Assembly: GCA_051362555.1 (NCBI GenBank)
Contig: CM120641.1
Span: forward strand, 36,710,401 to 36,774,400
Length of the DNA: 64,000 nucleotides
From: Lingula anatina
Lineage: Eukaryota > Animalia > Brachiopoda
Direction of reading: 5' to 3'
This document shows positions 10,669 to 64,000 of the stretch, piece by piece. Both the position numbers and the translations under genes were made by a program. Under the pieces are notes generated by a model that saw nothing but the letters and a program-made list of their open reading frames with translations, was not told where the DNA came from and made no database searches. Each line of letters begins with the position of its first letter. The first letter of the stretch is position 1.

Positions 10669-10714
<46 letters not shown>

Positions 10715-12606: not shown

Positions 12607-12656
12607 TTGAAGAGAGTGGAGGTATTACTCGCAGACTTGCGGTCCGCATTACAGGT

Positions 12657-19931: not shown

Positions 19932-20005
<74 letters not shown>

Positions 20006-21693: not shown

Positions 21694-21787
<94 letters not shown>

Positions 21788-22854
21788 AGCCCAGGCCAAA
21801 TCTAGTCCTATGACTTAGAAGCCCAGACTCCATCCTAATTAAGGCCTGCTGGGCCCAGTCTTAATGGTGTCTTTGCATTGTTAACAGCATAAGACCAAGT
21901 TAATTGGCCAAGCTGCCAGTTTGTTTGTATGGCATGTGTAGGGGATGTCTTAGATCAAGGCACATATTATGATACTTGCAGGTGTGGCAAATGAGATATA
22001 GTTGTATTTCATTACCTGTGATTTGTAAAATACATCTGAGGATGATACTTTAAAATGGGTGGGCTGCCATTTGTTAGTGTGTTATTATGCTGACAACATG
22101 ACACAACCTATCTGACAACATGACACAACCTTTAACGGTATGCTTACATTCGTTCAGGTGACAACAATGCGTGGATAAACACCTCACCGTAGCTATAGGT
22201 TGTGCGAAACAAAAATCTAAAATACTGAAATAAGCGGACAGTTCTATTATTTCACCCACCTATTCCATCATCTGTCACTTGATTCTTGCTCATATCGAGG
22301 TGTTCTAGTCCTTGTAATCGAGCTATGACGTCAGGGATCTTCGTAAAATTATTGCTTCCTAGTTGCAGCCTTTTCAAACATTGCAAGACACGCATTGCGT
22401 CTGGCAAATCCTCCAAGTTATTACCTGTTAGAAAAAGACATCGTAATTTCTCCGTGAAGACGCATTTCTCTCCGTGTAAGTTGGGGATACAAGGCAGTTG
22501 CAGAAAACTCAAAGACAATGTTCGTAGTTCGAGCATTTTAACGAGGAGGTCCCAAATTTTCTCATAATTCTTCTCTTGAATGATTTGATTGACATGGTCT
22601 TCTGGTAAATCAGATGAAATATAAAGTTCGGTAAGATGATCGGGATTAGCACGGCCATCTTCTTCAATGGGAGGTGAAGATGGCTCGTCTTCTCTTACGT
22701 CGCGTTGAAACTGGAACTCATGTACACAACTGAAAAAGTGTTGGTCTACATTTACATTGGCCACAGCAGATTCGTCGCTGTCATTGCTTACTGAACTCTC
22801 AATAGTTTCAGTTGAGAGCTTATTTTGCTCCACATCATCCATTTTGCTACACAT
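19126..22854 (-). CDS. LRR-TIR protein, copy B (5 exons, ~489 aa; no signal peptide or transmembrane helix)
   Basis: Exons 22854-22260 (start may be 22842), 21193-21033, 20810-20534, 20241-20102 and 19422-19126, 1470 nt total. Same phases and exon sizes as copy A except exon 3 is 12 nt shorter. TIR motifs FDVFILYS and RDYTPG. Confidence 0.88.
19466..19804. mobile_element. TTAA-flanked MITE (Kolobok-like) in intron 4 of LRR-TIR copy B
   Basis: TIRs AGGGATAATAACTCTTCGT / ACGAAGAGTTATTATCCCT; TTAA at 19462-19465 and 19805-19808; absent from copy A intron 4; second copy at 35888-36211. Confidence 0.88.
19935..20002. repeat. (TA)n microsatellite
   Basis: Direct reading. Confidence 0.95.
21696..21785. 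repeat. Compound (TC)n(TA)n microsatellite
   Basis: Direct reading. Confidence 0.95.
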
Positions 22855-23596
22855 TTGAAGAGAGTGGAGGTATTACTCGCAGACTTGCGGTCCGCATTAC
22901 AGGTATGACGTGTAGGAAATTTCTACAAAAATACCCTGCAATGTTTTGTAATACTGAAATGTGATCCATAAATAGCAGTACGGAAAATCCAATATTCACG
23001 CAAAGATAAATATAGGCCTAGATTACAGCCTTTTGTATTGTGACCTGAGCATTCTCTTTTTCTAAAGGGTTATTTTTAGAATAGACTTGAGAGATAAATA
23101 AGTCTCTTTCAGAATATTTGTGTAGGGACTACATTATAGTAATGTAAATAAGCTCTTGTGGATTGAGAAATTAACTGTCTATGCACGGATTATACACATA
23201 TTAAAACTGAGCAAAATAATTTAAAGAATTGGTCTATATTTGTGTCATATCAAGTTTCTCGTTTTGAAAATTCTGAAAGAAAATGTTTGGCGCGTTGTTT
23301 CATTAAATCACTTTAAGTAACCGTTAATTGCAAAAATCTAACTGAGCGAAATTCGTAAAGAAAATGTAGAACGTGTTAAAAAATCAGACAGTTAAAATAT
23401 AAATTCTGAGGAGTTTACTTATGGAAATTTCAATAAACGCGTGAATCGTCTTCCTTTATAAGTGTCTATCTATATTTCATGAAGTAGAAAGACAGAAAGA
23501 AATATAAATATGCTTATGCTGTATCGTAAAATTGGATGGAAGTCCTGTCTTTTCTATCAAAATGCCTCCCCAGTCCGTTTATTCGACCTATAAAAG

Positions 23597-42413: not shown

Positions 42414-43182
42414 ATGGCGACTGGATATATAGTTCAAGCTTACCAAAGGACTTGGAGGAGATTTATTTTATTGTTGTTTTTTGTTGCGAACATCGGTGAA
42501 GCGATACGACTTAACGGAAGAGAGAATTCCTATGCTCAATACTCAAAATGGCACGCGTGCGTGCACTCCACTCTAAGTTTTGAGTTTAAGACAAGAAACC
42601 GGGTAGGTTTATTATTTTACATGGATGACACTCGGGGAGGTTATGATATGATGAAAATGAAACTTGTGGGTGGTAGACTCCAATTTGTATTGAATTTTGT
42701 AGACGGCAATGAAGGTAAAGTCAGCTTTAATCCCGAGGGAGTCTTCAACGACGGTCGTTGGCACACGGTCGAAATAAAGCGAAATCGAATGGAAACCATT
42801 CTAATAACAGATGGAAATCAAAATCAAAAAATTGCCATAGGATCAAGATCAGATTTTAACTTCGGAGAAATAAACCAGAACTCTCCTATGTACTTCGGTG
42901 GTATCCCAAGCATAGAAGAAAGACCATTAAACACATATGTCGATACTCGAGTTCAGTTCGAAGAAAGATTCGAGGGATCTTTTAGAAATATTATTTATTC
43001 AAATTGTACAAGCCAGCGAGTCAGGGCGATTTTGGAAAAGTCCCAGGGGATGACACGGGATAACGAGGACCCCTGTGACACGTACAACTCTTGTAACCCA
43101 GGCTGTGTATGTGTGACATCAAACAGAAATCAACCCAAATGTGATTGCAAGGACGCTCTCAGGGGCCCCACTACCGACGCAG
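42414..43182 (+). CDS. Neurexin-like first coding exon: signal peptide, LNS1 and EGF1
   Basis: Hydrophobic leader FILLLFFVANIGEA; LSFEFKT..GLLFYMDD, FNDGRWHTV, MYFGG; Cys-rich EGF; donor AG|GTAAAC in phase 1. Confidence 0.9.
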
Positions 43183-45151
43183 GTAAACAAATTTTATTTA
43201 TTTTTAATTTGTGCACAATATTTCACTTCACCAGGCACATAATACAGTCCAAGAAATCCTATTAGTGGTAATATATGTGTATGTGCACACACACGCAAAC
43301 ACGCATTAATCTGAAAATGTCCTCACATGATAAAGCAGGTCGTTTCAGTACACCCGTATACCATGTTATAAAATCCGTCCTATTTTTCTGTAACGCATAT
43401 TCTATGCATATACCAGCACTTTGTCATGAATTAACTTTGTATGAAGCGTACACAGTTCACTGCTTCCAGCTTTGTTATCACGGCGTGTGTGCATTACTAA
43501 ATGGACCGTGTTGCTTGCAGGTAGACAATTTTTTCATATCATATACCCGAAAGCAATGATCAACGTTGCAGACCTGGCGTCGTCTGTCAACGTCTTTTCA
43601 GCTGACAATATAACTCTTCCCCGATGTACTTTCTACAGGGTTTATTCCTCATAGGCCACCCATAGGTATAATCAATAAAATGTAACCCCCCTTTTCAGCT
43701 AATCGCCGAAATTTAAACCTATGTGAAGTAACAGATTCCCCATGAGTTTCATCATAATACGAGGTGGTCATTGAACATCAATAATAGCTTCATGAGCATG
43801 GTTTATATATAAATGTGCATAAATTGGGGTAAGGACCCATTGTAGCGGCGTCAGACTGTAGTTCACATTTCAAAGCTTGCCTCAATGCCGTGGCCAGGGA
43901 TTTACTCAGGTGCAGGCCCCTGAACGAAAATAACTTCTATAATGGATCATTGGGGATGTTTTATTGACGCTTCAAAGGATTCTTTTTGACTGTTCGGGGC
44001 ATGTTTGGTTTTATGACGATTCATTAAATAGACATTCTAATATTACATGATTTTATATAAGCACATAATGTCGTTTTTGTTAATTCGCGCGAAGTCAAGC
44101 AGGACAGCGTATAACCCTTTAAATCTGGCATCACAATCTTCGTAGATTTTCATTAAAACAACATCTTTCCTTGGCTGTAGTAGCTTTCTGCTCACGAAAA
44201 CTTCACAGTAGTGTTGGTCAGGTGAAAGAACACGGTCAGACTGCCTGTGCTTGTGCAATCTTTCAGACTGAAATATACTCACTTCCTCCCGGTCTCTGCC
44301 CACATTTTTCTTCCATCATTGGGCTTAATGTGAAACTTATTACCGGAATCATCACTTAATCTTATGCAATCATATTTATTAAGATGCTCGGTCAGCGTTG
44401 CGTCTTCATCTACCTACAGTACAAGGTAAGAAAATGAACACCAGCTGCCAGGGAGCGATAGGCCCGTATTGCCTAAACTTCAGTCAAAAGATCAACCAGG
44501 GGTCATGTTTGCCGAGCGTATTTTAAAGGTTTCGTTGCTCTGCACGATGCGACCGAGTTTAAATAATCTCTTGGCGGAAATGAAAAAATAACGCTATTAA
44601 TGTAAACGTACCAGACCATGGTTAGGTCCTAATTGCATCATATAGTGTATATCTGAGAGCAATATTCACTGTGGGTTAGTTCATATAGACTTTCATTTAT
44701 CGGCCAAAATATATGAGATATATAAGTGAAGCTACTCATTATACATGTATGTCTTTGAGACTGTTCCATGCAATTATTTGCAGCAGTTATTTTTCCTTCC
44801 ACTATAATTATTTTAGTCCGGGATAAAAAAAATGTCTGAAAGAAAGGTATGCTCTTGCGTATGTGTCAAGTATTTCATTTAAGGGAAAGAGGTCTGAGAG
44901 GTGTGTTGATAATGGACCGTTTTTCACATTAATTAAGCCAGTCTTACACCTAACCTTATGCCTACCTACAGTGATTCAGAAACATCAGTGATGGGCTAGG
45001 CGTCCATCTGATGAGCGTCCCGAAATAACTTTTTAGCTTTCTAGTGAACAGCTAGGCCAAGCACACAGTGAGTTTGTCGAGATCGTTGGAGCAAAGAGCA
45101 AAATGTTAACTTCTTGAAAATGTTAGAGGGTTTAGCTCTCAGATGTCAGCG

Positions 45152-45200
<49 letters not shown>

Positions 45201-45302
45201 TGCCAGTCCTGCCGGGGATGTCATCCGCGATTCAAATTGTCTCAAATCCCCCCGCCCAATTGCAGACCCAGCCTTTATACCTGTCACCCAACACCAATAA
45301 TT

Positions 45303-45350
<48 letters not shown>

Positions 45351-47333
45351 TAAGTTTCGCTGTATGAGATATTTCAATTTTATGATAGAGAGAATGAACG
45401 AATGAAGATACAAGTATGAGGAGAGGGTAGCATTAAGGATGTTAATATAATGTCAGCATGGACTACTTATTGCACCTCCATTCATACAATATTAAACACC
45501 CCAGTGAAGTATTAAGATATATTTATTGAATGAATGTAAACAGAGAATTGACATCTTCCACTTAGTACAGCTACAAGGATACTAGACTTTTACCTTTCAT
45601 CTTCTGAACGCATACTTCCCCTTTACCTTATTTGCCGAGCCAGGTAATACAGAGCTTAACTGTATGGAAAAGGAACGCACATTTCATTAAATTGCCCATT
45701 TTTTTCTTCGGAATGCCCTCAGCATACCTGAGCTTCAGCCTCAAAATACTTCTCTTGATTCATTAAATACAGGCATTTGAATAACTGCGAGATAACTTAA
45801 GAAAACAAGACGAAACGATTCCCTGCTGTATTTTGACATAACTATAAACTGCTTCAAGCGCCGTTGCTGAAATTACAAGAATTAAAACGTTATAGGACAG
45901 CATCAAAATAGTAACAGAAAATTACTTAATGTGCCAAGCCATCTCAGAACCAGAAATGTAAATACTTCAAGTCCTCTTCAACAGTAATACGTAAATATTG
46001 AAGCCTGTAACAAACAATGGTGGCGTTTGCCTGACATGTGATACGGGGTTTTTGCCTACAGAAACAACCAACCTGCATTCACACTGTGTCAAAACGTCTG
46101 AGTTTTTTTACAGAAAACAAAACAGACCTTTTGTCTCGGTGGATTGCACAAGAGCACGTAATATTTAAGTTTACCTCATTAGCATGCAATAGAAACTGTC
46201 TAAAACGATTTGTTGTGGACAAAAAGTGATGGTTGTTGGAAGTAACAAGACATTGCATTTTCTTGACTTTCAAAATTCCTTAAGAAAAGAAAGTATAAGT
46301 AAAAAAAAAACTCCAGAAGTACTGAGGTATCAAATAAACAAATAAAGATTGTAAACTTCATACAAGAAAATGGAATATGACGCCTTTTGCTTCTCATATT
46401 TCTATTTCTATTAGTCACATTGACCATTAGTCGTAGGGTTGGGCCAGTAAGCGGACTACCAGACACTATACCTGAGGCAATGCGACAACATTATTTTCAT
46501 CGGCTGCTTAACCTTCTCCTGAACTCTTAGAGAGTGATTAATTGTTTGCTGAATAAGGACAACGTCCACTTACTCCAGTTGTAGATACTTTGTAACAGGT
46601 TGTTTGAATCTAGATTTATTCTAAATTATTACGCCTGAATACAAGATGAGTTATACGGTGTGTTTCTTTTTATCTGAGTCCTGTGCATAAGTGCCTATTG
46701 TCTCTCTCATGCGTTATATATTATATAAAAACAAGAAAATGTATATGTCATGCCCCTCTTATGCCGAAAACCCATGGCAGGCTGATTATTCGTTAAAAGG
46801 TTATACAAATTCCAGTACACTGTACCCCTATTACTTTTCCCAATATATCATGTTCACTTAGCCGCCGTTGACCAAACTGTTGGCGTTTTATTTTGGCAAC
46901 GAAACAACTAAATTGTTCAAAGTGAAGGCTAAGTGGTGTTCTCCTTGAGCCTCAACAAAATTATCCGAATTACGAGAGAGAAAAGAGCGAGAGAGAGAGA
47001 GAGAGAGAGAGAGATGGCTGACGGAGAAACTTTTTGGACAGCGGTTCACGTGTTTTTGATTGACGTTCCAGGAGACGTCTGCCAGTGCTTAAATTACCAG
47101 CAAAGGCCACACCTTTAAAGGTCACGGCATCAGCAGTTACGCAACATTTAGATAAAAAGTAACTGCCGTTGCTTGACATCAAACCAGTAGTTAGAGCACG
47201 CGGAGCCCCGCGTCTTTATGGGGATTTATTTAATAACTTATGAGAGCTCAAAACGTGGAAATGAAGGGTTGCGGCAGAGACCCGTGCCTGGCACAGTGAG
47301 AAAGGCGTTTCAATGTACTCCTTGAAATAATCA

Positions 47334-47403
<70 letters not shown>

Positions 47404-50400
47404 AAAAGGTGGAGCGAGAGAGAGGAAAAGGGGTCGGCGAAGTTATTTCATATTCATCTAAGAATATGATATAAGAGTTATTTCATCTATACAGAACACT
47501 AGTTAAAAAGGTTTTGTGTTTGACTTCTATTTTAAATGATATGTTTTTTTCGTTCTTAAAAGAGCGTCTAGTTAGCTGTCGGTAAACAAATGTGTCAGCA
47601 CTCTATGGCGACTGGTAAATTTTAAAACAGTAGGATTCACGTTTTCTGTGCTGTATTGTCTTAACCTGCTGTTCAGTAACGTCGAATATGAAATCCCCCA
47701 AATGGCAAAAAATGCAGAAACAAACGGTTTCGATTTAAATGCTATTAGAACAACCATCGTCAGGTGCTGCAGAGGAGAGAGTGAAATTTGATTTATTTGT
47801 GTTGCCTACTTCCTCACCGATCTTTTGGGACAGTAGTTTGCGTTTAGTGCAAAATGTGCCTTTATGGAGAACATTTCATTTGTTAAAGATATATTTTGAT
47901 CCAGGTTACCGACAACTTCAATTACGCATAATTTAGCCACCTTTTTAAAATTACCGTCCGCAACTTACAGCAAATGGATGGGTTTAATCAAGTGAAATTG
48001 GAAAACAGAAAGAGTGCGACATGCATCACCACTTGTGCATAATACTTATCAAAACAGTAAACTCCTATTGCGCCAGAAAAGGCGAAGTTACAAAAACAGT
48101 TGCCCCACGCAAAAAAACATGACCCAAAACTCTCACAGTCCTGTTTTTTACCGTTCAGCAACTCTGAATGATAGCTAACTCGCTGAAAATGACTTCACGT
48201 AATGGTTGTTATATTAAGTCAGACAAGCTATACACCACGAGAAAGAGGTCGACATTGACATTCATGCTTCGTCGATTGACTTTTACACGGTGGAGAAAAA
48301 AATTAATAGTACTGAATAATCCTTACACGCAATACTCTTTTCTTTAATAGTGGCACGCCGTCTGGGTGACAAATATGTAACGACGCCCTTAAAACAAGTA
48401 CTCGTCCGGTTTAAAAACAATGACTTCTCTTCGCGACACCGAAGGTGTGTGTATCCTTAACAGTCCGCGGTTACCGGTGCGTTCCATCATTAGGAGTTAT
48501 GAATCCTGTCACTGGGCCATCAACACACCCGGGTGCATGTTAACTAACTTTAGAGAGACCTTTTTACCTGTATTCGGGCACATCTGGTTTACATTTACTA
48601 TAAATACAAAATCTTTTGGTTCAATTTTAAAAAAAGAAATCCACACAAGTTACCATGCCCTCGTAAATATGCCAATTTTATAGAATTTGCATCCAAAGTG
48701 AATCTGTATTCAATCAAAGTTGTATATATGCTTTTAAAGGCCAAACATTTTTCCGTCAAAGATTGATAAGTTTGCAATGGTTCGTTTGTCATAAATACCC
48801 TACTCAGAGTGCTATTTGGATGGAATATGACTTTGGAAGGCTATTTAAAAGTATGTTCTAGTCTAAAATCGTTCAAATTGAAGCTAATGGAAATATGGCT
48901 GGTATGCAGGAAAACCAGTTTGGGGAGTTTTCATTCAAAGTTCCCTTAAAGGCTTGTTTTGAAATATACCTGGCCTATATGTTTGTCTCCCTTTATCATA
49001 ACTGGCCAGGCCTTTTTGCTTGAACAAGCAGTAAGAGCTTGCCAAAAGTGCAGGCCAAAAAGTTGTCTTGGTGTAATGAGATTACGTATTTTAGACTGCA
49101 TGTTAAATATGCCCATCCCTTATGTCACCTCTGCCTGCGCTCAACAGATAATAACCGTGACGAGTAAATGGTTTCTTATGTCTACAAATCAATCTGCACC
49201 TAATACTGTCTTTTACAAAGAAAACATATCAAGTTATATCAAACGAGTTTGGTTTCTTAAGGCTGAAAAATGACGCTTGAATACCTTTTCACAATATGTA
49301 TCAAGTTGCGTTAAGCTGTTCAGTTTCTCATACCAAGAGCCTGGGATTGGATATTTTCATACAATATTCATACAAAAATGGTGTAAATTAAAGTACGTTT
49401 ACCAATGTTCAACATTGATATTGGTCTTACAATGTTGAAAAATCTCACATCCGAAGGTTTATTTTTTCCGCCCAAACCTGAATACCTTTTCAAATATTCT
49501 TGTACCACAATGCCTGAGCAAAATTCTAATAAGACGCTCTGGATTGTAGGCCCCACGTTTAATGACTTTGATACATCAAATATCAAATTATACCGATCTT
49601 GTCAAGTTTCTTGTTTAAGAATATCACGTATAAAAAACTTTCACACTCAACGCACTTTCGTTTGTCTTTGCCTCTGACCCTCGTGGACTCACGAATCGAT
49701 CATCTGAACGACAGTTACATTGGTTGCAATTCTCCTCAACGTCCCCCGCGAGAAAACGCAGGCTGGATGAATGGGTCGCGTGAAGACGGATGTCTAAGGT
49801 AAATACGCCTGGAATATATTGCCCCTGTCAGGGAATGAGCAGAATTCTAATAAGGCTTTAAGGTCAGGCAAAGCGTCTCTTGAAACACAGTCTAAATTGG
49901 CAAGGGCTTCCATCTCTTTTTAACGCCCTGCCTGTCCTATCACATCTTCCACGCCACGTTTCCAGCGGAATTTAAATGTCAAACGAACACGTGTTTGCAA
50001 ACTACATCCAAGGTAGTAACGGGAGAATGAAAATAAAATACTTTAACCTGATTAAAGCTAATTGCTTGTATTCATTAAAGAAACATTGCTCTTAAGTTGA
50101 AAAACTTAACTGTAAAGGATTTTTGAAGATAAAAAGGGTCTTGTATGGTATTTCCAGAGTCTCTGTTGTAAGGGTTATGATTTCCTGAGAGCACTACAGC
50201 GCATTCTTAGAATTTGCGAGGTTTGCCTTCTACAGTGTACACTAAAACAGTTCCGATACAGAAATGAATCATATAATAACCACTTTGTGTGGTCCACATC
50301 ATGTCAAAATCGAAGCCAAAGCCTAGATAAGGGTGAAATTATAAAGAAAATGTATAAATGTGAAGATCAGCCTTTCCTAGTAATTATTTCACTTTGTTTT

Positions 50401-53400
50401 TTCTTTTGGAAAAAACTGACTAGAAAAGATTCGTTATGTGATATTTAACTACTTTTCTTCGAAATTTTGATGAATCCACTTGTGTCAGAATTCACAACAT
50501 ATCAGCTTGGCCTTTATTTATTAGCTATAGAGTATGACTTACTTATATTTTAAAGAGAAAGCAAGCCGCTCAGTAGTCTAATTTTCCATTATAGAAGCTA
50601 ACCGTGGTTGGTTGAGATAAACTACATTTAGGCCTACATGTAGAACCAGTGAGTGTCCGCGTGCGTGGGCGAGGGGTTTCCTTTCAAGGTGGATTCAGGG
50701 AGTGGGAAGGCAGGTGCAACAACAAACACCATAGAACCTTTTTGGCAAATCGACAAGCACTGATAAAGTACGAGGTCATTCGGTGTCAATTTGCCAACGG
50801 CACAGTACAAATGCTACTCTCAGCATTTCTGCAATGTAAAAAGCACTTGAAAAAATAACGAGCGGATTTTCAGGCAGGAATCCCCTGTTTCAAAAATACG
50901 AACAACAACCATTACAGAAGCATCACAGGCAGGCGATTATAAGCACAGTCAGCTTGACTTTACTACCTGGCGTAAAAATAGAAATATCAACATTGTCGAA
51001 ATATTACGGACAGGTTTCTCTGTAGCTAACTACTCATCACCACTTATTTCTGGTACGAAAATAAATTATGGCAATACAGGTAGAGGTGAATTCAACACTA
51101 TCAAATGGCTGTTTATTCATTCAAATATTCAATATTTCTACCTTGGGGTGGGCGTGGGGATAGTACACCGGATGATTTCTAATAACAATGACATAGACTG
51201 CACATACTCACTAAGACACGTTTATTCTTTTTTATTTTCGTGCTTTATTTTTTTCTCGATAAAGAAGTAAGATACACAAAACTGAAAACATCTTGTTGTT
51301 AAGCTCTCAGGATTCGAACCACATTTGGATTATTTTTTTTGCATTCTTCAACATCCCTGTTACTGGTTATCTAGTTGTTGTTACCAGGCAACCAGGGTAT
51401 ATAACAGAGGTTGGTGTTTTCCAAGCTGTGTTATATATTTTCATATGTTATGCGGGTAGTGTTTCACTAGATCAAGGTAACTTATATTAAACGCACAACA
51501 AAAGGAATGAAATAAAATAATATATAGGAAGATAAATACTCGTATTTTTAAATGAACTACAGTAAGGCGCGGTTTACTTAGATCTACAAAGATTATAATG
51601 AATTGACTTCACTCTTTAAAAAGCAGAACGTCAGCCACCATAGTAATACGTTTTTAAGTGTTAAGTGCCATTCGAAAGAGACATTTCACCTATTATGCAC
51701 CATTTATTTCTACTAAAAACAGTATACGGCTTCGAAATGACGTGGGCTCATTTCAGCGTGAAATAAACCTGGGCAGTGAGTCTCTTAAAACAGTTTTATA
51801 TACATAAGCATACCGTGGAGGTCATTTCATATAGTTCAGGTCACCACTGGCATAATTCATGATAACGAGGATGCTGACTGTTATCATGATTATTAATTTA
51901 AGGTCAAAATGTGTATGTTTTTAGGTGTCTGCCACTTTCATATCTTTAAAAACATATTTATTTAATGGAAGTCCCATCTAGCTCTTTGTTAAGTCCTTGT
52001 CGTGAAATTAATCAAGGGAAGACACTCGACTTTGCTCGTCTTTTCAAGGGTCGAACGGGGAATCCGAGCCCCAACCTATAGAAAAGGGAAGGCGTATTAA
52101 CGATAACTTCAGATCTAACCACCCAGGTCTGAAAGAGCATAGTTCAAAGCAAAGTGTTGCCCGTAGACGTGTAACCGTAGTACTTAACCGACCAAATTAG
52201 GTATCTTTATCTATATCACCTTCGCATATACGTGTCCGCTGGGCACAGGTAACAATTTGATGACCAATTGACCAGAGACCCACCCCAAAGGTGAAATGAC
52301 ATATACAATGGGAACGGGATTGCTCGAGAAAACAGCGCAATTAAGGGAAGAGGAGTTGGGGCGTTTTTTACAATCGGTTCAAGTGGATCTGTTCCTACAA
52401 TAACCTTTACTTTTATTTTTGGTTGAATCTAGCAAATATTGCTGCCACCTTCCCTTCTCACACCACTCATTCTAAGCTTTCATCTCATTAAGGGGGTTTG
52501 GGCCTGTCTTTTCTAGTGTGAACGACGCCGGTTACATGTACTTCACATATTGAGATACACTTGAAGCAGCATTATGTTCGCGCATAAAACACTGACAGGA
52601 ATTTCAGACAGGACAAACAGGTTTTGTGGGGAAAGCCGCAGTGACGGTCTGCTGTGTAAACCGCAGTCAATGTCAACTGACACAAAATGATCTTTCCTTA
52701 TAAGTTCTGCATTGACCCTGAATGGGTCCAAAGTATGAAAGAACCCGCAGAACTCGGAGTCATTTCAATCCGCCTTGTGAAGCGGACCCTTTCTTTTTTT
52801 TGTATTGGCTTGCTTGTGACGACATGCCAACGTGTTTTACACTTGATTTCATATTGCTTGTTTTGACACATAGACTATTCACTAACTTTAAGAAGTTTCC
52901 AAATACGTTTCATTTTATTTTTTTCGAAGGAATGTCAATTTTAACTTAAAAGTTCTAATGTCGGAATGCAAGATTGCGTTAATCGCATAGTAGGCTGTAG
53001 TGGATAAAATACCAGATAGAATTAGGTAACCACTCAGACATGGATCTTTGTTTTGTTTGTTTCATTACACACATGTATGCATCTACAGCCTGTTAGTCAC
53101 CCAAGAGGACATCTTTCAACTTCACAACAGCGAAAATTCACAATCGCAGTTCATCATATATGAGATAGCAAAGTCGAGACATTTTCACTAATCTAACTGA
53201 AGACGTTTTTCTTTCGTTTGTTTTGTTTCTTTCAGTGCATATTGTCCCTAAATCTTGTGCTTCTTAGTCACTTGGAAAGCCGCAGCAGCTTTTACCGATA
53301 AAATTTTCTTTCCAATCTGATCATACCGGAAATAACTAAAACGAAATGTAGAAACGAAAACATTCTACCCAATACACGTTTTCTCATTTCTTTTTTCTTT

Positions 53401-56400
53401 TCTTTTCCTTTTTTTCTTTTAATCTATTTTGTTCCAAAACGTCTCGACTCTTAGTCACTACATTGTCGATTTCGAAACTTGTAAAAAGGTGAACTTTGCC
53501 AAAAGAACGTTCTTTCCAATTTTAGCAAACTGGAAAAGTAATTTGCGGGTTATCTTTAGTAGGCTCACACCTGTAGGTTTTCTCACCCACTTAACACTCA
53601 TTAGTCATTCAAACACAGAGAATTACCAAGAAATTAGTCATGCGGGTAGTAAGATCGCTGCTGAAAAAGTTACAAAATGTTAAATTTAATAACCAGTGTC
53701 TTGAATATAACACCAGATGATGCTGAAGGAAGAAATTTGCTAAAGGAATATTTAAAAACCCTGTCTTTTTTTACAGTAGGGCCTAATATACGTAGTTGTT
53801 TACTGTCCTTAATTTAAAAGGTGCTTGTTGTTGTGCAGATTTGAACATTTTTAAGAAGGACCATGTTTACCTTTAAGTAAAACTTCGTTCACTATTGCCT
53901 TGGTTTTGAAAAAAAAGTCTTCTACCTCGAATTGTAGATTATTCACTAGACCATTCATGAGTATTGGTGCGCAATCTTTACCTCAAGATACCTCCGGGTA
54001 TGAAGCTAAGGAAAATCTTTTACTCATTGCCACTTTCTTGGCACTAGCTCGAGTTGTTTTGAAGATCTCTGGCTCCAGACAATTATTGTTGGCATTTACC
54101 TCTTTCATTCCGGCTGAATCATAACGACCAAAACAGACTGTTACGAATGCTTTCTGGTCTGTCATAATTGTGTTTTATATGTTGCATAGTAAAATGTTGC
54201 TTCTTAGTACACGTCATCCAGACGACATTTGATTATACCGCCGTACAGGTCATGCAAAATATGACAACGTCAGCTAAATTAATCTAAATTGTGAAACTAA
54301 TATTTCAGATATCCATGTTTTGGTTTTCATACCTATTTGAAAGTACTGCCCTTCACTCACAAACTTCTCAATCTCAATCTGAACTTAAGTTAAAGTAAGA
54401 AATGCACATTGACCTATGAGAGCCAGTCAATGTGGACCACTTTTATAGTTGGGGTACATGCAAAAGACACATATGTCTAGAATGCTCCTTAAATAGACAT
54501 TTTTGCTGTGCTTATCACGTGTTTCAAATAAAAATTCAGTGAGGCAATTTTTCCTTTTTTGCAACACATCAAAAGAATTGCACTTTGCATAGTTTACACA
54601 ATATTATAAGCCACCTTCATTTGTACATTTCCAGATACAATGTATACACTGCCAATGAACCAAATTATCGGCGGTGAGGTATATAACCCATCTGGTTTAG
54701 ACGCTATCCCTATCCGTAATCCTGCCATCAAGACCTTTAGAGGACTTCTAGATGACAAAGCTGTGGAATTGGATTGTGACAAGCAACAAGCTATTGAAGT
54801 GTCAGGGAAGGCTCACAAGGGAGAGTGTTTTGGTGACCTAGACCTCTGCGACCAAGGTATGTGCACCAGTAGAATAATCTTGGATAAAACTTAATTTGTG
54901 TTTACTTAATATTAATACAGGTGAAAAATAATTAAGTTTTATAAGTTAACTACATAATATTTATCATTCCATGGAAAAGAAGGGCACGCGCATTATTAAT
55001 TAAAACCCAAACATGTACATGGAGCATAATAAAACGTCTTTACGGAGTTTGTATGTTTACATATAATCACAAAAAGGGCATCAAAAGTGGAACAACTATT
55101 TCTTTGATAATTTCATACCCCCCCAAAAAAATTTTTTTTTTGTTTCTCGCGTAAATTTTAAAATATATAATTTACTGAGCCCAGCGACTTTACAATAGTT
55201 AACTTCCTCTGAGGTATGTATTAAAATCAAGTTTTCCTTTTACAGGTTATACCGTGGCAATGTGGGTTAATTTCAAGAATGCTCCATATCGACAAGGAGT
55301 TTATATGTCCAACGGTGGTCATAATAGGAAAAACCACGGTGTTGCAATGAAGTACCGTAGTGGTCACATAGAATTTGTATTCCGCAACAAGGCAGCACAA
55401 GAATGGGTCGTCAAGGGGGATAATGTCTTGGAGGGACGCTGGTATCACGTCGCAGCGTCTTGGGACCGCAATCGGGGTCTTTTCCTCTATGTGAACGGAG
55501 AACAGGTTGACCATGCCAGTTCCTCGAGGAGAAAAGGCAAATTGGACACAACCCATGCTGATACTTTCGCCAAGTTTAACTTGGGTCGTTCCAACGATGC
55601 TGAGGGATCTGCCAGCACAGGAACACTACTGGTGGATGAATTTACTTTCTGGTCTAAATTCATGACGGCCAAAGATGTGCGAGAGAGTAAGAAAGGTCAG
55701 AAGGTTTCTTATTAATGCAGTGAAAAATTACTTTCATAAATAATACCTACAAATTAATATTATTAACTTTTCTTTTACGTGTACATATACATTAGAATAG
55801 GGTAAAAATAACACGATATGGGGTACTGACTGTTAGTGTTATCACAACTATTTATCTCTGAAGTAATTGCACAATAAATGGGTAACATTTTAAACCCTCA
55901 AAACACCCATACATTATCGTTGATGGGGATGACACATATATAGGCTCTATAAAGATCTTAAAACTACCTTTATTATATTTCATATAAGGACCCTACTATC
56001 GGTACTATTTCCCAATGGAGGGCACAAGCGGCGGCCAGCTCATAACCCCTAGTTCTCTGATACGGGCCACAGTGGGCGGTAACCCTGTTGCTGTCATGGG
56101 CCAATACGAATCCGCCCTCAAGCTGGATGGCATCCGGGACTACGTGACCCTTGGAGACGTCCGAGACACCTGCCTAGGCCACCACGCCAAGTGTACCAAA
56201 GGCTGGTATATGTCCATGTGGGTGAAATTTGACAGCTTGCCCAACGGTATGGTTCTTTTTGATAATGGCAACGGCACGACCATCACATACAGAAATGGAC
56301 TCCTGACTGCTCTGGTTACGATGGCGCAAGGCGGTAGGGTAAAATCTTGGCAGGCTTCGGCAAGAAACCTTGCGATGAATCAGTGGTACTTCTTGGAAGT

Positions 56401-59400
56401 CTCCTGGAGTCAGACCATGGGGCTTAGTATGTACGTCAACCTCGATGAAGTAGACCGTGATAACTCTCCCACCAATGGACAACTTTCAACGTCATTTACA
56501 CATGATATGTACATCGGGAGGGGGAATTCCAGGGTTGCTCCATATGCCCCAGTAACCATTGACGATCTTGAAATTTGGTATGCTGATAGAAAGAGTCTGT
56601 TGGACCTGGATTTCATTATGCGAGGTATTTTTTCACATATATTTGATTCATGTTTTTTGTCAGGCTTATGAGTTCTGACATAGATGTGTAAGAATGTTTC
56701 TCCAGATTCACACTTTATAATACTTGATATACTTGATAATATTATATTATGAAATCTAATCGGACTTGCTGAATTTTTTCTCTAGGACCACCACAAAGTC
56801 ATCTCTTTGGATTGGACTTTAAACTCAGCAAGACCCGTGTCGCAGGCCCCTTCCCCGTGCACATCCACTCCAATCCCAGTATCGTTGACGGCAAAGTGTT
56901 GGGCGCACTGTGGTTGAACGGCGACGAACAGCACGCAGAGGTGAAGATTGTCAACAAAGAAAACTGCCTAGGAAACCTTGACGCCTGTCCCCATGGTGTT
57001 ACTTTAACCTTCTGGATTCAGCCGGTAGAAATCAAGGATAAAACCTACTACATTTCAACGGGGTTGAACGGTATCACGGCGTCTTACATCAACGGTGAAT
57101 TAGTATTCAAAGTGGAGACAACCTCTCGCACGTGGATGGCCAAGACGCGAGCTCTCAACCCAGCAACCGGACTCCGAGAAATCGACCCAGATGCTTGGTA
57201 CTTCATTGAACTCTCCCTTCATCCCGATAGGGGTCTCAAAGTATACGTGAATGGCGAAATGGCAGGACAAGACAAGTCCCCAGACCTCAGAAACATTGAC
57301 CAAAACTTTGTGTACACGACAGAGAAAGATAGGTTCTATATTGGTAGGGGGAACTTGGATATGACTGACAAAAGGTATGCCAACGCTACCATTGATGAGG
57401 TGAACTTCTGGTATGGCCCTAGGGATTATCTGACGGCATTTGGATATCTCAGGAGAGGTGAGTTCGTGTTTATTTGTTGATATGCTTACATCGTATTTTT
57501 AAATAGATGTGTTTATTACTCTTGTTGAATGACATCTAACATAATGAAAGCATTTTTAGCTTTTTAAAGCTTTTTAAAAATAATTATCATACAATTTAGC
57601 ACACTGTAAATAGGACATTAAAAACAATTTCATTATCAATATTTCAGGTTTGCCTGAGCACTTTTTCATCACTTTTGATGACATTCGCAGCGGTCGCGTT
57701 GTCCACGACAAACTTAACATCTTAACTAGGGGCAATCCAGTGGCCGTACCGGGCAAAATCAACAACGCTCTGTCCCTGTATGGTGGACAGTATGCCGATC
57801 TTGGCGATCATAGTGACAAATGCCTGGGCAACCTCACATTCTGCAAACGTGGTTTCACTATGGCAACTTGGATGAATATTCGTAATCGCCCATTGGAAGG
57901 TACATACTACTTCTCATCTGGAAGAGATGGCATGCAGATTTACTACCAACGGGGAATGTTGTACGCTGATTTTCGCTTAAATGACAAACTCTGGAGAGTC
58001 ACTCTACCTGATGTACGCACAAATGAATGGCAATTCTTGGAGTTCTCTTGGCATCCAAAACACGGGCTTACTGTGTATAAAAACAATGAGCTGGTTGGTA
58101 GCGATGCTAACGCACAGATTGATACGTCTTATGTCAGTCAAGGGAACAACTTCTTCATTGGTAGATCAAATAATGTGAGGAATTTCAACAACATAGATGC
58201 CTTGTTTGATGACACGGAGATTTGGTATGCCAGGCGAGAGGATTTGGTTGCTTTCAACTATATACAAAGAGGTAGGTCTAGAACCAATATCTCTGAAAAT
58301 ATTTCATTACATATTTCTTTGATATTTTACTACTATTATTATGAAGAAAGGTGTATTTTTTTATTTCACTTTTAATAACGTGGTGTAAGTTACTAAAAGG
58401 GCTTATCTTTTAATTTCTTTTGTGACAGTGAATTACACAATTAACACAAAATGATTCAGATGTACTTTTATGTGAAACTAAAGATTGTAAACTTTCCTTC
58501 AGGAAAATACCCGAAGGAATCATTCTCTTTTGAAAATGCCGACGGGAGCAGAGTGATACATCCAAGACACAGTGTCATTCTTCACAATAATGCCCATCTG
58601 GTTGTTGGCGATGTCGGGAACGCTGTCGATCTAAATGGAAATGCCCAGTTCGTCACACTGGAAAACCTGTACAGAACGTGCATGGCCAACCTAGAACTCT
58701 GCAAGCACGGTCTTACCATGTCCTTCCGTATTAAACCGCGCGATATGGCTGACGACACATACTTCCTTTCCAGCGATGCCTATAAAGTGTTTACCAGAAA
58801 TGGCCGCGTGCATGTCACCTTCAGCGACAGGAATAGAACGTGGGAGGTATCAACGGATGCAATCCGTAAAGACAACTGGAATCTTGTAGATATATCCTGG
58901 CATCCGACTAAGGGATTGGAACTGTACGTGGATAACCAGAAAGTTGCCAGCACAACCGTCTTCACGACTCAACCCAATAGAGAGGTCACCAACAGAAACG
59001 TGTACATCGGTAAAACGGATACTTACATGATACGCGAAAACTACGCCAATGCTATAATAGATGAACTTCAGTATTGGTACACGCCGATTGACCAGCTCAT
59101 TGCCTTTGACATACTGGCAAGAAGGTCTATCTCTAACCAAACTGTTAAGATGGATGTTATCAATGGTAATATTATCCCAAATCCAAATCCAAATTTGGTG
59201 ATCACTGCAAGTGGAAGGCCATCTGTTGTTCCTGCACAACCGGGTGATCCATTCAATGCTATTTACGTCACCAGAGATCAATATATTGACTTTGGTGGGA
59301 ACTTCACTTGCGCCGGAAACCCACAGAAGTGCTACAATGGTTACACCCTAAGATTCAAGACCAATCCCAAAACTCTGAACGAGAACATGTATTTTATAAA

Positions 59401-59997
59401 CAGTAACCCTGTGAATGTTTACTGGAAAGAAGGAAGGCTGCACGGAGTTTTTAACACACCGACACAGACATGGGAAGTTTCCACACCGGATTTCTATGCC
59501 GGATCGTGGCATGACGTTGATTTATCTTGGGACAGGGAAAATGGTCTAATTTTGTACATCAATGGCACCAAAGTGGACCAAAGAGTCCGCCCTATCATCA
59601 GAAAAGACCCTAATGACTACAACAAACATTTCTTCATCGGCACCAATAAGATAACTCCGACTATGCTAAACATTGATGCGGTAGTTGATAACTTTGAGAC
59701 CTGGAATTACAAGAGAGACTATTTGGTCAGCAAGGGTATAATTACACTTTTCCAAGTAACCACTCCAGCGCCAATAACAACCCCTGCTCCGCCTAGAATT
59801 AACGCCATCTATCAAGACGGAAACAACCGCTGGATACCTTACCATATTTATAACTTGCCCCCAATTTTTAATGTTCAAAACGACAGGGAGACGCTTTCCA
59901 TCGACTTCGTTGCCAACTACCCTGATGGTCTTATCTGGTCCAGTGAAAATGATAACAGGAAGATTTACTTGGCGCTCAAGGTAAATTGTCTAGAAAT

Positions 59998-60036
<39 letters not shown>

Positions 60037-63000
60037 TTTCGTATTCGTATTTTATTGGGAGAAAGATTACAATCGGTATATTTTTGTACTGAAGATTTAA
60101 AAGAGAAACCAGATAAAAATAATTCTACATATTGCTGTAAAAAAATTAACTAACATCCCATATCGAAATGATCCATGCTGTCATGTATGTGGAAATATCC
60201 AGGGGACAGTGAAAACTAAAATGTGTCATTTTTCATTCAGAGAGGTATTCTCCAAATGGGTGTCACCTTCCCCGATGGTTTGAGCCAACTTCTCAGTGTG
60301 GCCCCACGCTCTGGGAACTTCGCCGACGGTCGACTCCACAGGGCAGTCATAACACGGGATGGGCGAGTGGTGAGATCATTTTATTGAATGGCAAAGTATT
60401 TTAAATGATCGTTACAGTAGTGTACGTTTCTTCCCATGCAGAGAATGTTCAACGCAAAAATAATGTCGGATCACTAAATCTTACACAATACACTCATTAA
60501 CAGTACACATTAGAAAGATGCAAACCTAATTCGTAAAATAATTCCAGTAAACTATTGTATTTGTATGTTAAAACGTGTTTGAAGAAGGTCCTTCTTTAAA
60601 TGACACCCTTATACCCGAACACATTTTATCTAATGTCATGTAACAACTAAAAATAAATAGTTGGCCAAATGAATGACTGGAATATTAATAATTTGTGTTT
60701 TGATTATGGACAACCCGTCTAAAAGATCGATCGTTCATTTTTACAAATAGAAAATGTTTCCTTCTCACGTTTTCCTTTTGTACGTAACTTTACAGGTGTC
60801 TATATCCGTGGACGGAGCCCAAGGAGACAGAAACATCAGGTTCGAGCGCCCGTTCCGGCTGATCGACAGGGACACCGTCTACCTCGGTGGTCACCCTGAC
60901 GTGTCAACCTTCACGGACGGAGCGGTAGATAGGGGGTTGAGTGGAAGAATAACAGAGGTAATACTTAGACACGTGGTTTGAAATCTATTCATAATTCATA
61001 AAGTATTACATGATTAAAACGGACATGTGTACTGTCATAATAAGTCCTGTTCTATAATTCCTCTTTGTCCATTATAAATGTAATTCATATTAAGTCTACA
61101 CTTTGTTTCTTTTTTCTTCACACTAGTATTTTTATATATTCATATATTTATTTTATTACGGCTCAAAAAAAGCCTTGTATCTTAGACTTATTAGCCTATT
61201 GTCTACCTTTCTGTAAATAGTGGTTGTAAAAAGTGATAGTATATTTTTATTTTTTATACCTTGATAGAAATGACAAAGTCACAATGATAATACTATGTAG
61301 TTGCTCCAAATGTGAGAGGCATGTGTGCGTGTATGGGAGTGAGAGGTTTAGTTAATTATCCTAGTTATTATTTAGTGTATTATTGGTATATTCTGGAAAA
61401 AAAAATAATGAGGAATACTGACCATTCTGATAAATCGTCTGTTCTTAATGATTTTTCTCAATAAAAGTAATACAACACACAAACACACACGTATTGATTT
61501 GGTTCCTTATTGTTACAGGTAATCATCAATGGAAACAGGTTCCCCATCCCACTGAATCTGATGACAGCTTTCCTTCAAAACACCCTTCCAAATTACATTC
61601 CTGGAGTGCAGAATGTCATCATCGAGGTCGACGGTGTGAGAAAATACTTCCCTACCCCACCACCGCCAACATCAGCCATTCCAACTCCAGTTACCTTCAC
61701 GGATGAAGCTGCCTTTATCTATACCACCAACAATCCGCCTAAATTTGGTCGGTCTGCTGACGAAATATCATTCACTATGAGGACGGTTGAACCCGAAGGT
61801 CTTATATTGATAAACAAGGCAAGAACAGGTTCGGATGATTTCCTGGCAATTGAAATTATGGATGGAAAACTTTGGTTGGTTGCTGAGCGTGCCGGAGAGA
61901 CCATGAGAGAAGCGTTTTCTGATACCATGGTAAACGATGGTCAACCACATAGGGTGAAAATTCAACGCAACAGCTTTGGTTTGACGACAGAGCTAGACGG
62001 CAACAGGAGGAACGTACGCGTTCCAAGACTAGGCAGCGGATTCAACTTGGGTGAACTGACGTACATTGGCGGGTATAGGTATACAACCAATTCGCTGCTC
62101 CCTTGGAAGACATGGGCTCGTAAAGGCTATGTGGGTTGTATTTCAGATTTTGTGGTCAATGGAAAATACGTTGATATCAAACAGCTGGCTGCCCAACAGA
62201 GTGTTCGCACAGGTGGAATACAGGAGGGTTGCTTCTCAATGCCGACCCGTTGTAGAAGTCAGCCATGTTTGAATGGAGGGGTGTGTCATGACCGGTGGGA
62301 TAGATACGAATGTGACTGCACCGCCACTGACTACAGAGGGCGTAACTGTGAACAACGTAAGGAAAATTTAATCGCATTTGAATTGTTTCATTTGCTAATT
62401 TTACTCTCAGTACATAGTACTCACCATTTCACACTTGCACACACGCACACACACACACACTACATGTAACACACACACACACACACACACTAAAACTGAC
62501 TTCAGCAAACATTTCTGGTTTGAACATCAAGCCTATCCTAATATCCATATTAAACTCAACGTAAAACCTGTGAATTTGACATTGTAAAACATTGCATTGA
62601 CACGATAGCCTTTTTGACATGTCACCCTCACTTGGATAATCGTACCTTACAGTTGCACCCATTGGGAGATTTGACGGCCGAACTGGAGTTTACGTGGATA
62701 TCTTCCCGTCTCTCCACACCCACAAAAACGATATCAGCTTACGTTTCCTGACAACAGAGAGAAATGGCGTTTTGTTCAACACCTATGATGGAGGGCGGAC
62801 CAATACCTACATGAAGGTTGCCCTTGAAAACGGGAGAGCTAAACTCATGACAAATCTTGGTGGACGTGAAATAGTAAGTTTGCATACACCCATGCTTCAT
62901 GTACGTTGATGACCTGGCCAAAATAACAATATCATGAAATTACATATCTCTCTTTATATAGATAAATGACGTCAACAGTTATCTTACGCAATTGTTCAAA

Positions 63001-64000
63001 ATATAACAATACCATAAAAAAGGAAATACATCTATCACAGCATAAATGAAACCAATATTATTTCTACGCAGTAGTCGATAAATTCTTTTATGAAAGATGA
63101 ATTAAGCGATAAAGTTTACTAGAGAATAATCATTTGAAGAAGGTGAATAACGACACATAGGCCTATATTAATATTATGTGTAACTATTTTCAGAACCCCA
63201 TGTATACTGGAAATAATCTGAACGATGGCAATTGGCATACTCTCCACGTCAAAAGACGCGGTGAACAACTCGAGTTCTGGATTGACAATGACGCTCATCA
63301 AAAATGTAAGTTATAGACGCCTTCATACTTCATTTCAAAGTCTACATGGATGTCACTTCTATCAGCATGTTAAGTGTGTTAATTTTTATGTATGTGTGTG
63401 CGTGCGTGGCAGTGAGAGAGAGAGACCGCTAATATTTCCCCGTTTTCTTACAGACACATTACCCGGCGAAGGATACTTACTGGACATCGCTCGCATTAAT
63501 ATCGGATATCCAGGCGGCAGCATACAGAACCTACGCCCCTCTGACATATTCAATGGCTACATCAAAAACATGCACTTGGCCGAGCTACCCGATAATATCA
63601 TTATCGACTTCAAAGATCTGAGAATTTACTACGTGCCCAACTATCCCGTCACTTTCCGTTCCCACCAGACACACGTCTCAATAGACGATCTCCGCAACAG
63701 TGATTTGAACAACCTGAAATTTGCCTTCCGCACCAATAACACCGACGGCCTAATTCTTTTCAACGGTCGGGGTGCTAATGATGATTTCATCGCCGTAGAG
63801 TTAGAAGGAGGCTACATAAGCTTTTCGTTTAACAACGGTAACTCTGGACCAGTGAAAATTAAGAATATCAAGAAGGGGCCACTGAATGACAACAGGTGGC
63901 ATCTTGTGGAAATCCAACAAACGTCGCCAACGGAGTGGGTCGTCGGCGTGGACAACATTTATGAGCGAAGAACTATCAGTCAACAACAGACGGGAACTTT
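42414..64000 (+). CDS. Alpha-neurexin-like cell-adhesion protein with six inserted pentraxin/Laminin_G_3-type repeats (runs past the window end)
   Basis: In-frame exons 42414-43182, 54635-54856, 55246-55686 (or 55695), 55989-56624, 56786-57457, 57648-58271, 58503-59980, 60241-60369, 60796-60957, 61519-62356, 62653-62873, 63194-63305 and 63454 to >64000, about 2,280 aa so far. Architecture: signal peptide-LNS1-EGF1-6xLamG3-LNS2-LNS3-EGF2-LNS4-LNS5. The last exon reads PVTFRS...FRTNNTDGLILFNG..NDDFIAVEL..PLNDNRWH, closely matching neurexin LNS5 as recalled. Confidence 0.85.
45155..45347. repeat. Two (GA)n microsatellites flanking a ~105-bp unique core
   Basis: (GA)n at ~45155-45196 and ~45304-45347. 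Confidence 0.9.
47337..47400. repeat. (TG)n(AG)n microsatellite
   Basis: Direct reading. Confidence 0.9.
54635..59760 (+). CDS. Cassette of six ~210-aa concanavalin-A/pentraxin (Laminin_G_3)-type repeats within the neurexin-like gene
   Basis: Each repeat shows C(L/F/M/A)(G/A)xxxxCxxGxT..., W(Y/Q/N/H)xxxxS(W/L)xxxxGLxxY(V/K/I)(N/D), F(Y/F)IG and (I/V/F)D(E/D/N)xxxW. Repeat 1 spans two exons, repeats 2-4 have one exon each, and repeats 5-6 lie in exon 58503-59980. Confidence 0.85.
60001..60033. repeat. (AAT)n microsatellite
   Basis: Direct reading. Confidence 0.9.

What the first reader, a model, noticed from the sequence alone, without database searches (positions are those of the whole stretch)
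42414..64000. Giant neurexin-like protein with six pentraxin/LamG3 repeats inserted between EGF1 and LNS2
Seen: the phase-1 end of the LNS1-EGF1 exon fits the phase-1 start of the repeat cassette, and repeats 5-6 share one open exon (58503-59980) with the start of LNS2, so the fusion to the neurexin body is directly visible. Known: alpha-neurexins have a fixed LNS1-EGF1-LNS2-LNS3-EGF2-LNS4-LNS5-EGF3-LNS6 ectodomain, and the EGF1-LNS2 linker is the flexible splice-site-1 region. The C-x-G-x4-C-xx-G-x-T repeats are a different LamG subfamily, like pentraxin-type domains of adhesion GPCRs. Inference: a lineage-specific neurexin or paralogue whose ectodomain is nearly doubled (~1,280 aa extra), perhaps for wide-gap adhesion, matrix or glycan binding rather than a classical synapse.
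Basis: partly seen in the sequence, partly recalled or inferred. Interest (0 to 1): 0.8.

Follow-up and report, generated by a model that had tools for sequence, protein, structure and literature searches.

The report
Known spiralian neurexin-1b / PHRED-1 gene
This is a real, spliced gene for an already published giant neurexin relative of brachiopods, molluscs and annelids, whose six extra jelly-roll repeats are ancient rather than lineage-specific and which likely works as a muscle cell-surface adhesion receptor rather than a synapse protein.

Summary
Thirteen exons give an open 2,286-residue frame, LNS1-EGF1-six repeats-LNS2-LNS3-EGF2-LNS4-LNS5, cut by the window end. RNA-seq reads join exon 1 to the repeat cassette in 3 of 4 runs and confirm 7 of 7 introns between exons 2 and 9. 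The novelty claim fails. The protein matches, at 399 of 400 visible residues, Lingula anatina neurexin-1b (XP_013387658.1) in the supplement of PMC11405698, which describes this paralogue: extended N-terminal LamG array, C-terminal WD40, nine FN3 domains, beside a canonical neurexin-1a. The same six-repeat layout is in 17 of 23 mollusc and annelid relatives, 22 of 23 ending in WD40; LamG+EGF+TM+WD40 defines the PHRED-1 family, a muscle protein in planarians. What I did not find in print: the repeats are not LNS/LamG2 but a separate disulfide-bearing LamG3 jelly-roll, each position is conserved across three phyla, the six-repeat arrays of invertebrate adhesion GPCRs arose separately, and neurexin-1b and PHRED-1 are probably one family. 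Likely function: muscle adhesion receptor signalling through WD40 instead of a PDZ tail. Real and well supported, but largely known.

The parts
42414..43182 (+). Exon 1: hydrophobic N-terminus (likely signal peptide), LNS1 (aa 31-210), EGF1; ends in phase 1
   Evidence: Laminin_G_2 73 bits; best match neurexin-1alpha LNS1-EGF1; its last 30 bases are read joined to exon 2
43183..54634 (+). Intron 1, 11,452 bases, phase 1; no further family-like exon found in it
   Evidence: tblastn of 14 relatives finds only exon 1 left of 54600; junction reads
54635..55695 (+). Repeat 1 on exons 54635-54856 and 55246-55695 (aa 257-480), the most conserved repeat
   Evidence: Laminin_G_3 72.6 bits; joints; R1 profile 260 bits, next 100; 47% mean identity among relatives
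55989..56624 (+). Repeat 2, one phase 1-1 exon
   Evidence: Laminin_G_3 49.4 bits
56786..57457 (+). Repeat 3, one phase 1-1 exon
   Evidence: Laminin_G_3 48.1 bits
57648..58271 (+). Repeat 4, one phase 1-1 exon
   Evidence: Laminin_G_3 50.9 bits
58503..59980 (+). Exon 7: repeats 5 and 6, Pro/Thr-rich linker, first part of LNS2
   Evidence: One open frame; own profiles; repeat 5 folds as a beta-sandwich, pLDDT 96.6
60241..60957 (+). Exons 60241-60369 and 60796-60957: middle of LNS2
   Evidence: Joints; L2 profile 104 bits, next 15
61519..62356 (+). Exon 10: end of LNS2, Pro-rich linker, LNS3, EGF2
   Evidence: Best match neurexin-1alpha LNS3-EGF2; loose ends behind exon 9 match its start
62653..63305 (+). 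Exons 62653-62873 and 63194-63305: LNS4
63454..64000 (+). Exon 13, cut by the window end: end of LNS4 and first part of LNS5

Best explanation
The window holds the 5' part of the spliced, expressed gene for spiralian neurexin-1b, likely the orthologue of planarian PHRED-1, which likely acts as a single-pass adhesion receptor on muscle cells, holding fibres to matrix or neighbouring cells through its long LamG ectodomain and passing that contact inward through a cytoplasmic WD40 domain. Shown here: the exon chain, the junction, the domain order, six positionally conserved LamG3 repeats, and the TM plus WD40 tail in relatives. From print: WD40 and nine FN3 domains in this protein; muscle expression and fibre-patterning phenotype in the planarian. 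Inferred: the repeats form a rigid extension of about 1,280 residues that carries LNS1-EGF1 away from the membrane and may add low-affinity glycan contacts; LNS6 likely keeps its calcium site whereas LNS2 has mostly lost it; the WD40 propeller would replace CASK/Mint coupling.
For: Junction and intron reads. 399 of 400 visible residues equal XP_013387658.1 'Lingula anatina neurexin-1b', compared by eye; text on WD40, extended LamG array, FN3 and a separate canonical paralogue. 11 of 11 LNS and repeat domains of the window score best with their own position's profile, built without the window. 23 of 23 relatives have the TM segment, 22 of 23 WD40, 17 of 23 six repeats; none of 22 C-termini printed ends in the KE[W/Y]YV motif (motif). 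WD40 is the most conserved part, 55-77% to the limpet protein against 37-41% for the N-terminal 1,100 residues to the Owenia protein. Repeats group by position, 7 changes for 8 groups, the least possible, 0 of 200 shuffles as low. PHRED-1 is defined by LamG+EGF+TM+WD40, is in muscle, and its knockdown thickens and disorders fibres; repeated by another lab, muscle cluster in single-cell data. Flatworm (Macrostomum) proteins carry three such repeats before LNS2-5 and several EGFs. LNS6 has D or E at the Asp137 position in 14 of 14 rows, LNS2 has D at the Asp329 position in 1 of 12 species whose strand was located (motifs, register by pattern and eye).
Against: TM, FN3 and WD40 lie beyond the window and were not seen in this DNA. 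No planarian sequence came up in my searches, so orthology with PHRED-1 rests on architecture, the paper's reciprocal BLAST and a by-eye comparison; planarian PHRED-1 differs (2,506-2,536 aa, many EGFs, apparently one repeat and no LNS1-EGF1). The tissue of the RNA runs is not given, so muscle expression in this animal is untested. No ligand is known for the repeats; conserved residues are mostly core Gly, Trp and Cys, and a shared fold with carbohydrate-binding domains shows no function. Five of 23 relatives lack LNS1-EGF1 and all repeats, so the cassette is dispensable in some paralogues.
Confidence: 0.65

Rival explanations
1. It is a second synaptic or neuromuscular organiser: an elongated neurexin that still binds neuroligin-like or dystroglycan partners through LNS6 in the nervous system.
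For: Collinear with neurexin-1alpha from LNS3 to LNS6 (460 bits); acidic calcium-ligand position kept in LNS6; placed among neurexin-1 genes in PMC11405698.
Against: No PDZ-type tail in relatives; a canonical neurexin-1a exists in the same species; planarian phred-1 is in muscle, canonical neurexin-like contigs are in neural clusters and pharynx neuron numbers were unchanged on knockdown.
Confidence: 0.15
2. The family is a muscle receptor, but the six repeats are only a spacer of set length with no ligand of their own.
For: Repeat number varies: three in Macrostomum, apparently one in Schmidtea, four in one Owenia isoform, none in four scallop paralogues; oysters and Owenia lengthen the ectodomain with extra LNS domains.
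Against: Six copies with fixed positional identity across brachiopod, annelid and molluscs; repeat 1 is as conserved as LNS1 (47% against 50%) with its own invariant motifs, more than a spacer needs.
Confidence: 0.15
3. It is a shell or matrix-mineralisation protein of the mantle.
For: LamG domains and neurexin are mentioned in skeleton and shell proteome papers (search listings only).
Against: Present in shell-less annelid and flatworm lineages; the main text of the brachiopod shell proteome paper PMC4453069 has no hit for neurexin, laminin or LamG (another species, supplements not read).
Confidence: 0.04
4. The fusion is an assembly or gene-model artefact joining a neurexin to an unrelated LamG3 gene.
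For: The 11.4 kb first intron is far longer than the others.
Against: Junction reads in two studies, repeats 5-6 in one exon with LNS2, and the same order in 17 relatives.
Confidence: 0.01

Closest known systems
Neurexin-1b of molluscs and brachiopods (Lingula anatina XP_013387658.1; PMC11405698, Fig. 3 and supplements)
   Same: The same protein: 399 of 400 visible residues, including the exon 1-2 junction; LNS2-LNS5 row also agrees.
   Different: The paper calls the N-terminal array LamG2; here the six repeats are shown to be a separate LamG3 jelly-roll class. The paper does not mention PHRED-1 or pentraxin (0 hits).
PHRED-1 (Schmidtea mediterranea; bioRxiv 10.1101/131789)
   Same: LamG + EGF ectodomain, one TM region, conserved C-terminal WD40, lophotrochozoan range; by eye its N-terminus holds one unannotated repeat of this kind directly before an LNS2-like domain.
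   Different: Shorter (about 2,500 aa against 4,183), six to nine EGFs, apparently no LNS1-EGF1; the repeats are not described in the text.
Alpha-neurexins (NRXN1alpha, PDB 3qcw; invertebrate neurexin-1a)
   Same: LNS1-EGF1 and LNS3-EGF2-LNS4-LNS5-EGF3-LNS6 in the same order and position.
   Different: 1,284-residue insert, divergent LNS2, WD40 tail instead of a PDZ ligand, FN3 array in Lingula.
LamG3 repeat arrays of invertebrate adhesion GPCRs and VWD proteins (Acanthaster, Lingula, Lineus, bivalves)
   Same: Same repeat family with the two-cysteine motif; three GPCRs also carry six copies.
   Different: GPCR repeats form their own group (SH-aLRT 99) with no pairing by position, so the arrays expanded separately.
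Pentraxin domains (PTX3, ADGRG4 PTX-like) and bacterial ConA-like jelly-rolls (AbnA domain 4, clostridial HCN-type domains)
   Same: Same beta-sandwich fold: AbnA Z 19.1, rmsd 2.9, 180 aligned; PTX3 Z 14.7, rmsd 3.2, 159 aligned; neurexin LNS Z 12.8, rmsd 2.8, 141 aligned.
   Different: 9-19% identity; the repeat has an N-terminal extension of about 35 residues that pentraxins and LNS domains do not align to; a shared fold shows no shared function.

Membership tests
Spiralian neurexin-1b (PMC11405698) | Sequence identity with the published member | tested here: met
   399 of 400 visible residues by eye
Spiralian neurexin-1b (PMC11405698) | Extended LamG array near the N-terminus | tested here: met
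   Six repeats at aa 257-1540
Spiralian neurexin-1b (PMC11405698) | C-terminal WD40 domain | not testable with these tools
   Beyond the window and no genome held; stated for the Lingula protein in the paper; present in 22 of 23 relatives
PHRED-1 family | Signal sequence with extracellular LamG and EGF domains | tested here: met
   Hydrophobic N-terminus seen in the sequence, no signal-peptide predictor run; LNS and EGF domains
PHRED-1 family | TM region followed by intracellular WD40 | tested here: inconclusive
   Met in relatives and in print for this protein; not visible in the window
PHRED-1 family | Reciprocal best match with planarian PHRED-1 | tested here: inconclusive
   No planarian record came up; by-eye agreement of the first 400 residues with one repeat plus LNS2; Macrostomum relatives found
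PHRED-1 family | Expression in muscle | not testable with these tools
   RNA runs carry no tissue label
Canonical alpha-neurexin | LNS1-EGF1-LNS2-LNS3-EGF2-LNS4-LNS5 order with positional homology | tested here: met
Canonical alpha-neurexin | Short EGF1-LNS2 linker, ectodomain of six LNS and three EGF only | tested here: not met
   1,284-residue insert
Canonical alpha-neurexin | Short cytoplasmic tail ending in a KE[W/Y]YV PDZ ligand | tested here: not met
   Tested on relatives only: 0 of 22 C-termini printed carry it; the window's own tail is not visible
Canonical alpha-neurexin | Calcium-ligand Asp in LNS2 (D329) | tested here: not met
   Arg in the window; Asp in 1 of 12 species located (motif; register by pattern and eye)
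Pentraxin domain (repeats) | Pfam Pentaxin match above cut-off | tested here: not met
   Only repeat 1, 14.3 bits against cut-off 25; profile hits PTX3 at E 4e-4 over 80 positions
Pentraxin domain (repeats) | ConA-like two-sheet jelly-roll fold | tested here: met
   Model pLDDT 96.6; PTX3 Z 14.7, rmsd 3.2, 159 aligned
Laminin_G_3 (PF13385) | Match above the curated cut-off | tested here: met
   Repeats 1-4 at 48-73 bits, cut-off 27.6; exon 7 (repeats 5-6) was listed only under Laminin_G_2, 36.6 bits, but scores 233 and 176 bits with repeat profiles built without the window

The most novel reading that the evidence does not exclude
Neurexin-1b and PHRED-1 are one ancient spiralian receptor family in which a six-domain lectin-like jelly-roll arm, unrelated in origin to the LNS domains and so far mislabelled, was inserted at the neurexin splice-site-1 position; the arm binds matrix glycans and, with the WD40 tail, forms a muscle-attachment system that spiralians built from a synaptic protein.
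Probability: 0.3. Interest if true: 0.6.

Novelty: already known. Interest (0 to 1): 0.28.

Why it matters
As a discovery it matters little: the protein is a public record, drawn in a published figure, and the family has a name and a knockdown phenotype. The useful remainder is a sharper description of a poorly studied family: the repeats are a distinct, structurally confident domain with no close solved relative, their six-fold array predates the split of brachiopods, annelids and molluscs, and two unconnected papers probably describe the same gene family. That makes the open question of what PHRED-1 binds directly testable by repeat-by-repeat binding assays, and shows a neurexin reused for muscle with a new intracellular output.

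Tried and rejected
Word-index search with exon 7 among proteins of 862-2,460 residues found nothing (weak evidence, superseded). No whole genome is held, so the downstream exons and the canonical paralogue could not be looked up in DNA. The ESM Atlas gave no result. Single-sequence fold of repeat 4 was unusable (pLDDT 35.9) and was not searched. Exon 7 alone had no PDB sequence match up to E 1. No RNA holder was listed in the run index; 4 of the 9 raw RNA runs offered were laid. Block transfer of a six-repeat cassette from an adhesion GPCR was tested and rejected (quick trees, SH-aLRT or FastTree support only, long branches among GPCR rows, R4 support 79). Extra exons in intron 1: a splice-signal scan gave two candidates besides exon 2, neither supported by homology or needed by the junction reads. 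The origin of the WD40 domain was not resolved: beyond the family, one search returned only generic WD40 proteins. The journal version of the PHRED-1 paper was not held. Four look-ups of earlier findings gave nothing that bears on this.
Full report
Gene structure. The region 42414-64000 holds 13 exons on the + strand with GT-AG ends and one open frame of 2,286 residues, cut by the window end. Pfam gives Laminin_G_2 for exon 1, exon 10 and exon 13, and Laminin_G_3 above cut-off for repeats 1-4. Against solved structures, exon 1 matches neurexin-1alpha LNS1-EGF1 best (55.6 bits, next 31.3) and exon 10 matches LNS3-EGF2 best (116.1, next 88.1). So the neurexin assignment is positional, not only by family.

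The junction is real. I laid 4 of 9 offered raw RNA runs on 54400-61100. Three runs gave 348-535 reads, one gave 2. Loose ends at the start of exon 2 carry the last 30 bases of exon 1 in those three runs (11, 9, 15 reads; two studies). All 7 introns between exons 2 and 9 are read as GT-AG joints; the reads moved the exon 3 donor to 55695. Stranded libraries give + strand RNA. No skipping joint was listed at the threshold used.

It is not lineage-specific. A full HMMER search with exon 7 gave 441 proteins at E up to 0.001, among them a 3,736-residue Owenia fusiformis protein with the same order of domains, followed by LNS6, a TM segment, a Gly-rich tail and WD40. Its N-terminal 1,100 residues found 15 proteins among 4,751 candidates of 2,054-6,538 residues: 14 family members from Owenia, gastropods and bivalves, and usherin. 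The WD40 region of the limpet member found 22 family proteins at 55% identity or more among 119 hits, all from molluscs or Owenia; the rest were generic WD40 proteins. With my own profiles, 17 of the 23 proteins have six repeats, one Owenia isoform four, five none; 23 have the TM segment and 22 WD40 (the profiles were built from family members, so these counts describe, they do not test). With position-specific profiles built without the window, 11 of 11 window domains score best with their own position. Macrostomum proteins have three repeats before LNS2; those models are cut and show no WD40.

It is in print. PMC11405698 (I read section 6 part 1, passages, and parts of supplementary files 5 and 16; the figure itself is not held) states that molluscs and brachiopods keep one canonical neurexin-1 and a second with a C-terminal WD40 and an extended LamG2 arrangement near the N-terminus, and that the Lingula form has nine FN3 domains. 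Its supplement lists XP_013387658.1 'Lingula anatina neurexin-1b', 4,183 characters long; the 400 residues shown equal my model at 399 positions by eye, across the exon 1-2 junction, and the trimmed alignment row follows LNS2-LNS5 past the window end. A separate Lingula neurexin-1a is listed. bioRxiv 10.1101/131789 (I read parts 1-4 of 5 and passages; figures and supplements not visible, and its domain drawings may already show the repeats) defines PHRED-1 by LamG, EGF, TM and WD40 domains, restricted to lophotrochozoans, with reciprocal BLAST to Lottia, Octopus, Capitella and Schistosoma proteins; it is expressed in muscle, and knockdown thickens and disorders fibres. PMC6453901 (passages and supplement rows) repeats the phenotype and places phred-1 in a muscle cluster while neurexin-like contigs are neural. 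In that table the first 400 residues of PHRED-1 show, by eye, one repeat of this kind (two-cysteine motif, LamG3-type last strand) before the first annotated LamG at 248-430, and no LNS1-EGF1. I did not test this by computation.

The repeats. The six are 19-32% identical to each other, 29-46% to the same position in relatives. Repeat 5, folded with 112 sequences, gives a beta-sandwich at pLDDT 96.6. Best structural matches are a bacterial arabinanase domain (Z 19.1, rmsd 2.9, 180 aligned) and clostridial jelly-roll domains (Z 16-18), then PTX3 (14.7), neurexin LNS (12.8) and the ADGRG4 PTX-like domain (11.9) (Foldseek agrees). This is a common fold and implies no toxin relation or function. 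The same repeat family occurs in adhesion GPCRs of Acanthaster, Lingula and Lineus, three of them with six copies, and in VWD proteins. In a tree of 59 repeats (six family proteins, three GPCRs, two VWD proteins, picked from the 112) each position R1-R6 is one side of a branch (support 100, 94, 93, 79, 98, 87), GPCR repeats form their own group (99), and 0 of 200 shuffles did as well. So the six-repeat array was in the common ancestor of brachiopods, annelids and molluscs and did not come as a block from a GPCR. Repeats 2-4 each sit on one phase 1-1 exon, which fits growth by exon duplication (inference).

Mechanism. Best reading: a single-pass adhesion receptor of muscle. Shown: architecture and conservation. 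From print: muscle location and phenotype in one flatworm. Inferred: the repeats extend the ectodomain and may bind glycans, with R1 the best candidate since it is as conserved as LNS1 (47% against 50%); LNS6 keeps an acidic residue at the neurexin Asp137 position in 14 of 14 rows while LNS2 keeps Asp329 in 1 of 12 species located (motifs from PMC6450144, passages only; Mactra and Mya LNS2 were not located by the pattern); the WD40 domain, the most conserved part, replaces the PDZ ligand, absent from 22 of 22 C-termini printed. Against: five relatives lack the cassette, no ligand is known, and muscle expression is untested outside planarians.

Novelty. Eight literature searches found the two papers above. 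PMC11405698 has no hit for PHRED, pentraxin or concanavalin, and no listed paper joined neurexin-1b with PHRED-1 or described the repeats as a separate class; subscription journals and figures were not searched. The finding is real and the gene is unusual, but it is an already recorded protein of a named family. Interest 0.28.

Noticed in passing
window 9152-12624 and 19129-22872, - strand: Two tandem copies of a gene with LRR exons followed by a TIR exon, 75-85% alike in DNA; likely Toll-like or intracellular LRR-TIR immune genes. No TM exon was looked for.
   Followed up: partly
window 8392-9009, - strand: A 206-residue open frame without a Pfam match; by eye it resembles the tail of a non-LTR retroelement protein (recalled, untested).
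   Followed up: no
P0174-P0177 (scallops), P0171: A second WD40-tailed paralogue of about 2,630 residues lacks LNS1-EGF1 and the repeats and has LNS2-5 doubled; in Ylistrum the two genes have adjacent LOC numbers. The paper lists 1b1 and 1b2 forms in scallop and Aplysia.
   Followed up: partly
P0154, P0002 (Owenia); P0162, P0164 (oysters): The LNS body is also expanded: five LNS5-like domains in Owenia, a doubled LNS3-EGF2-LNS4 in oysters; one Owenia isoform drops repeats 5-6.
   Followed up: partly
P0096, P0130, P0123: Adhesion GPCRs of a starfish, a brachiopod and a nemertean each carry six LamG3 repeats of this family before the membrane part; apparently an old, unnamed invertebrate receptor group.
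   Followed up: partly
P0084 (Owenia), P0091, P0033, P0036, P0124: The same repeat is fused to an amiloride-sensitive channel fragment (possibly a gene-model join), an astacin protease and VWD proteins: a mobile module.
   Followed up: no
window 54635-60957: High coding polymorphism: in one run 483 of 535 reads are only 95-99% alike to the window, with a 3-base insertion behind 58144 in repeat 4.
   Followed up: no
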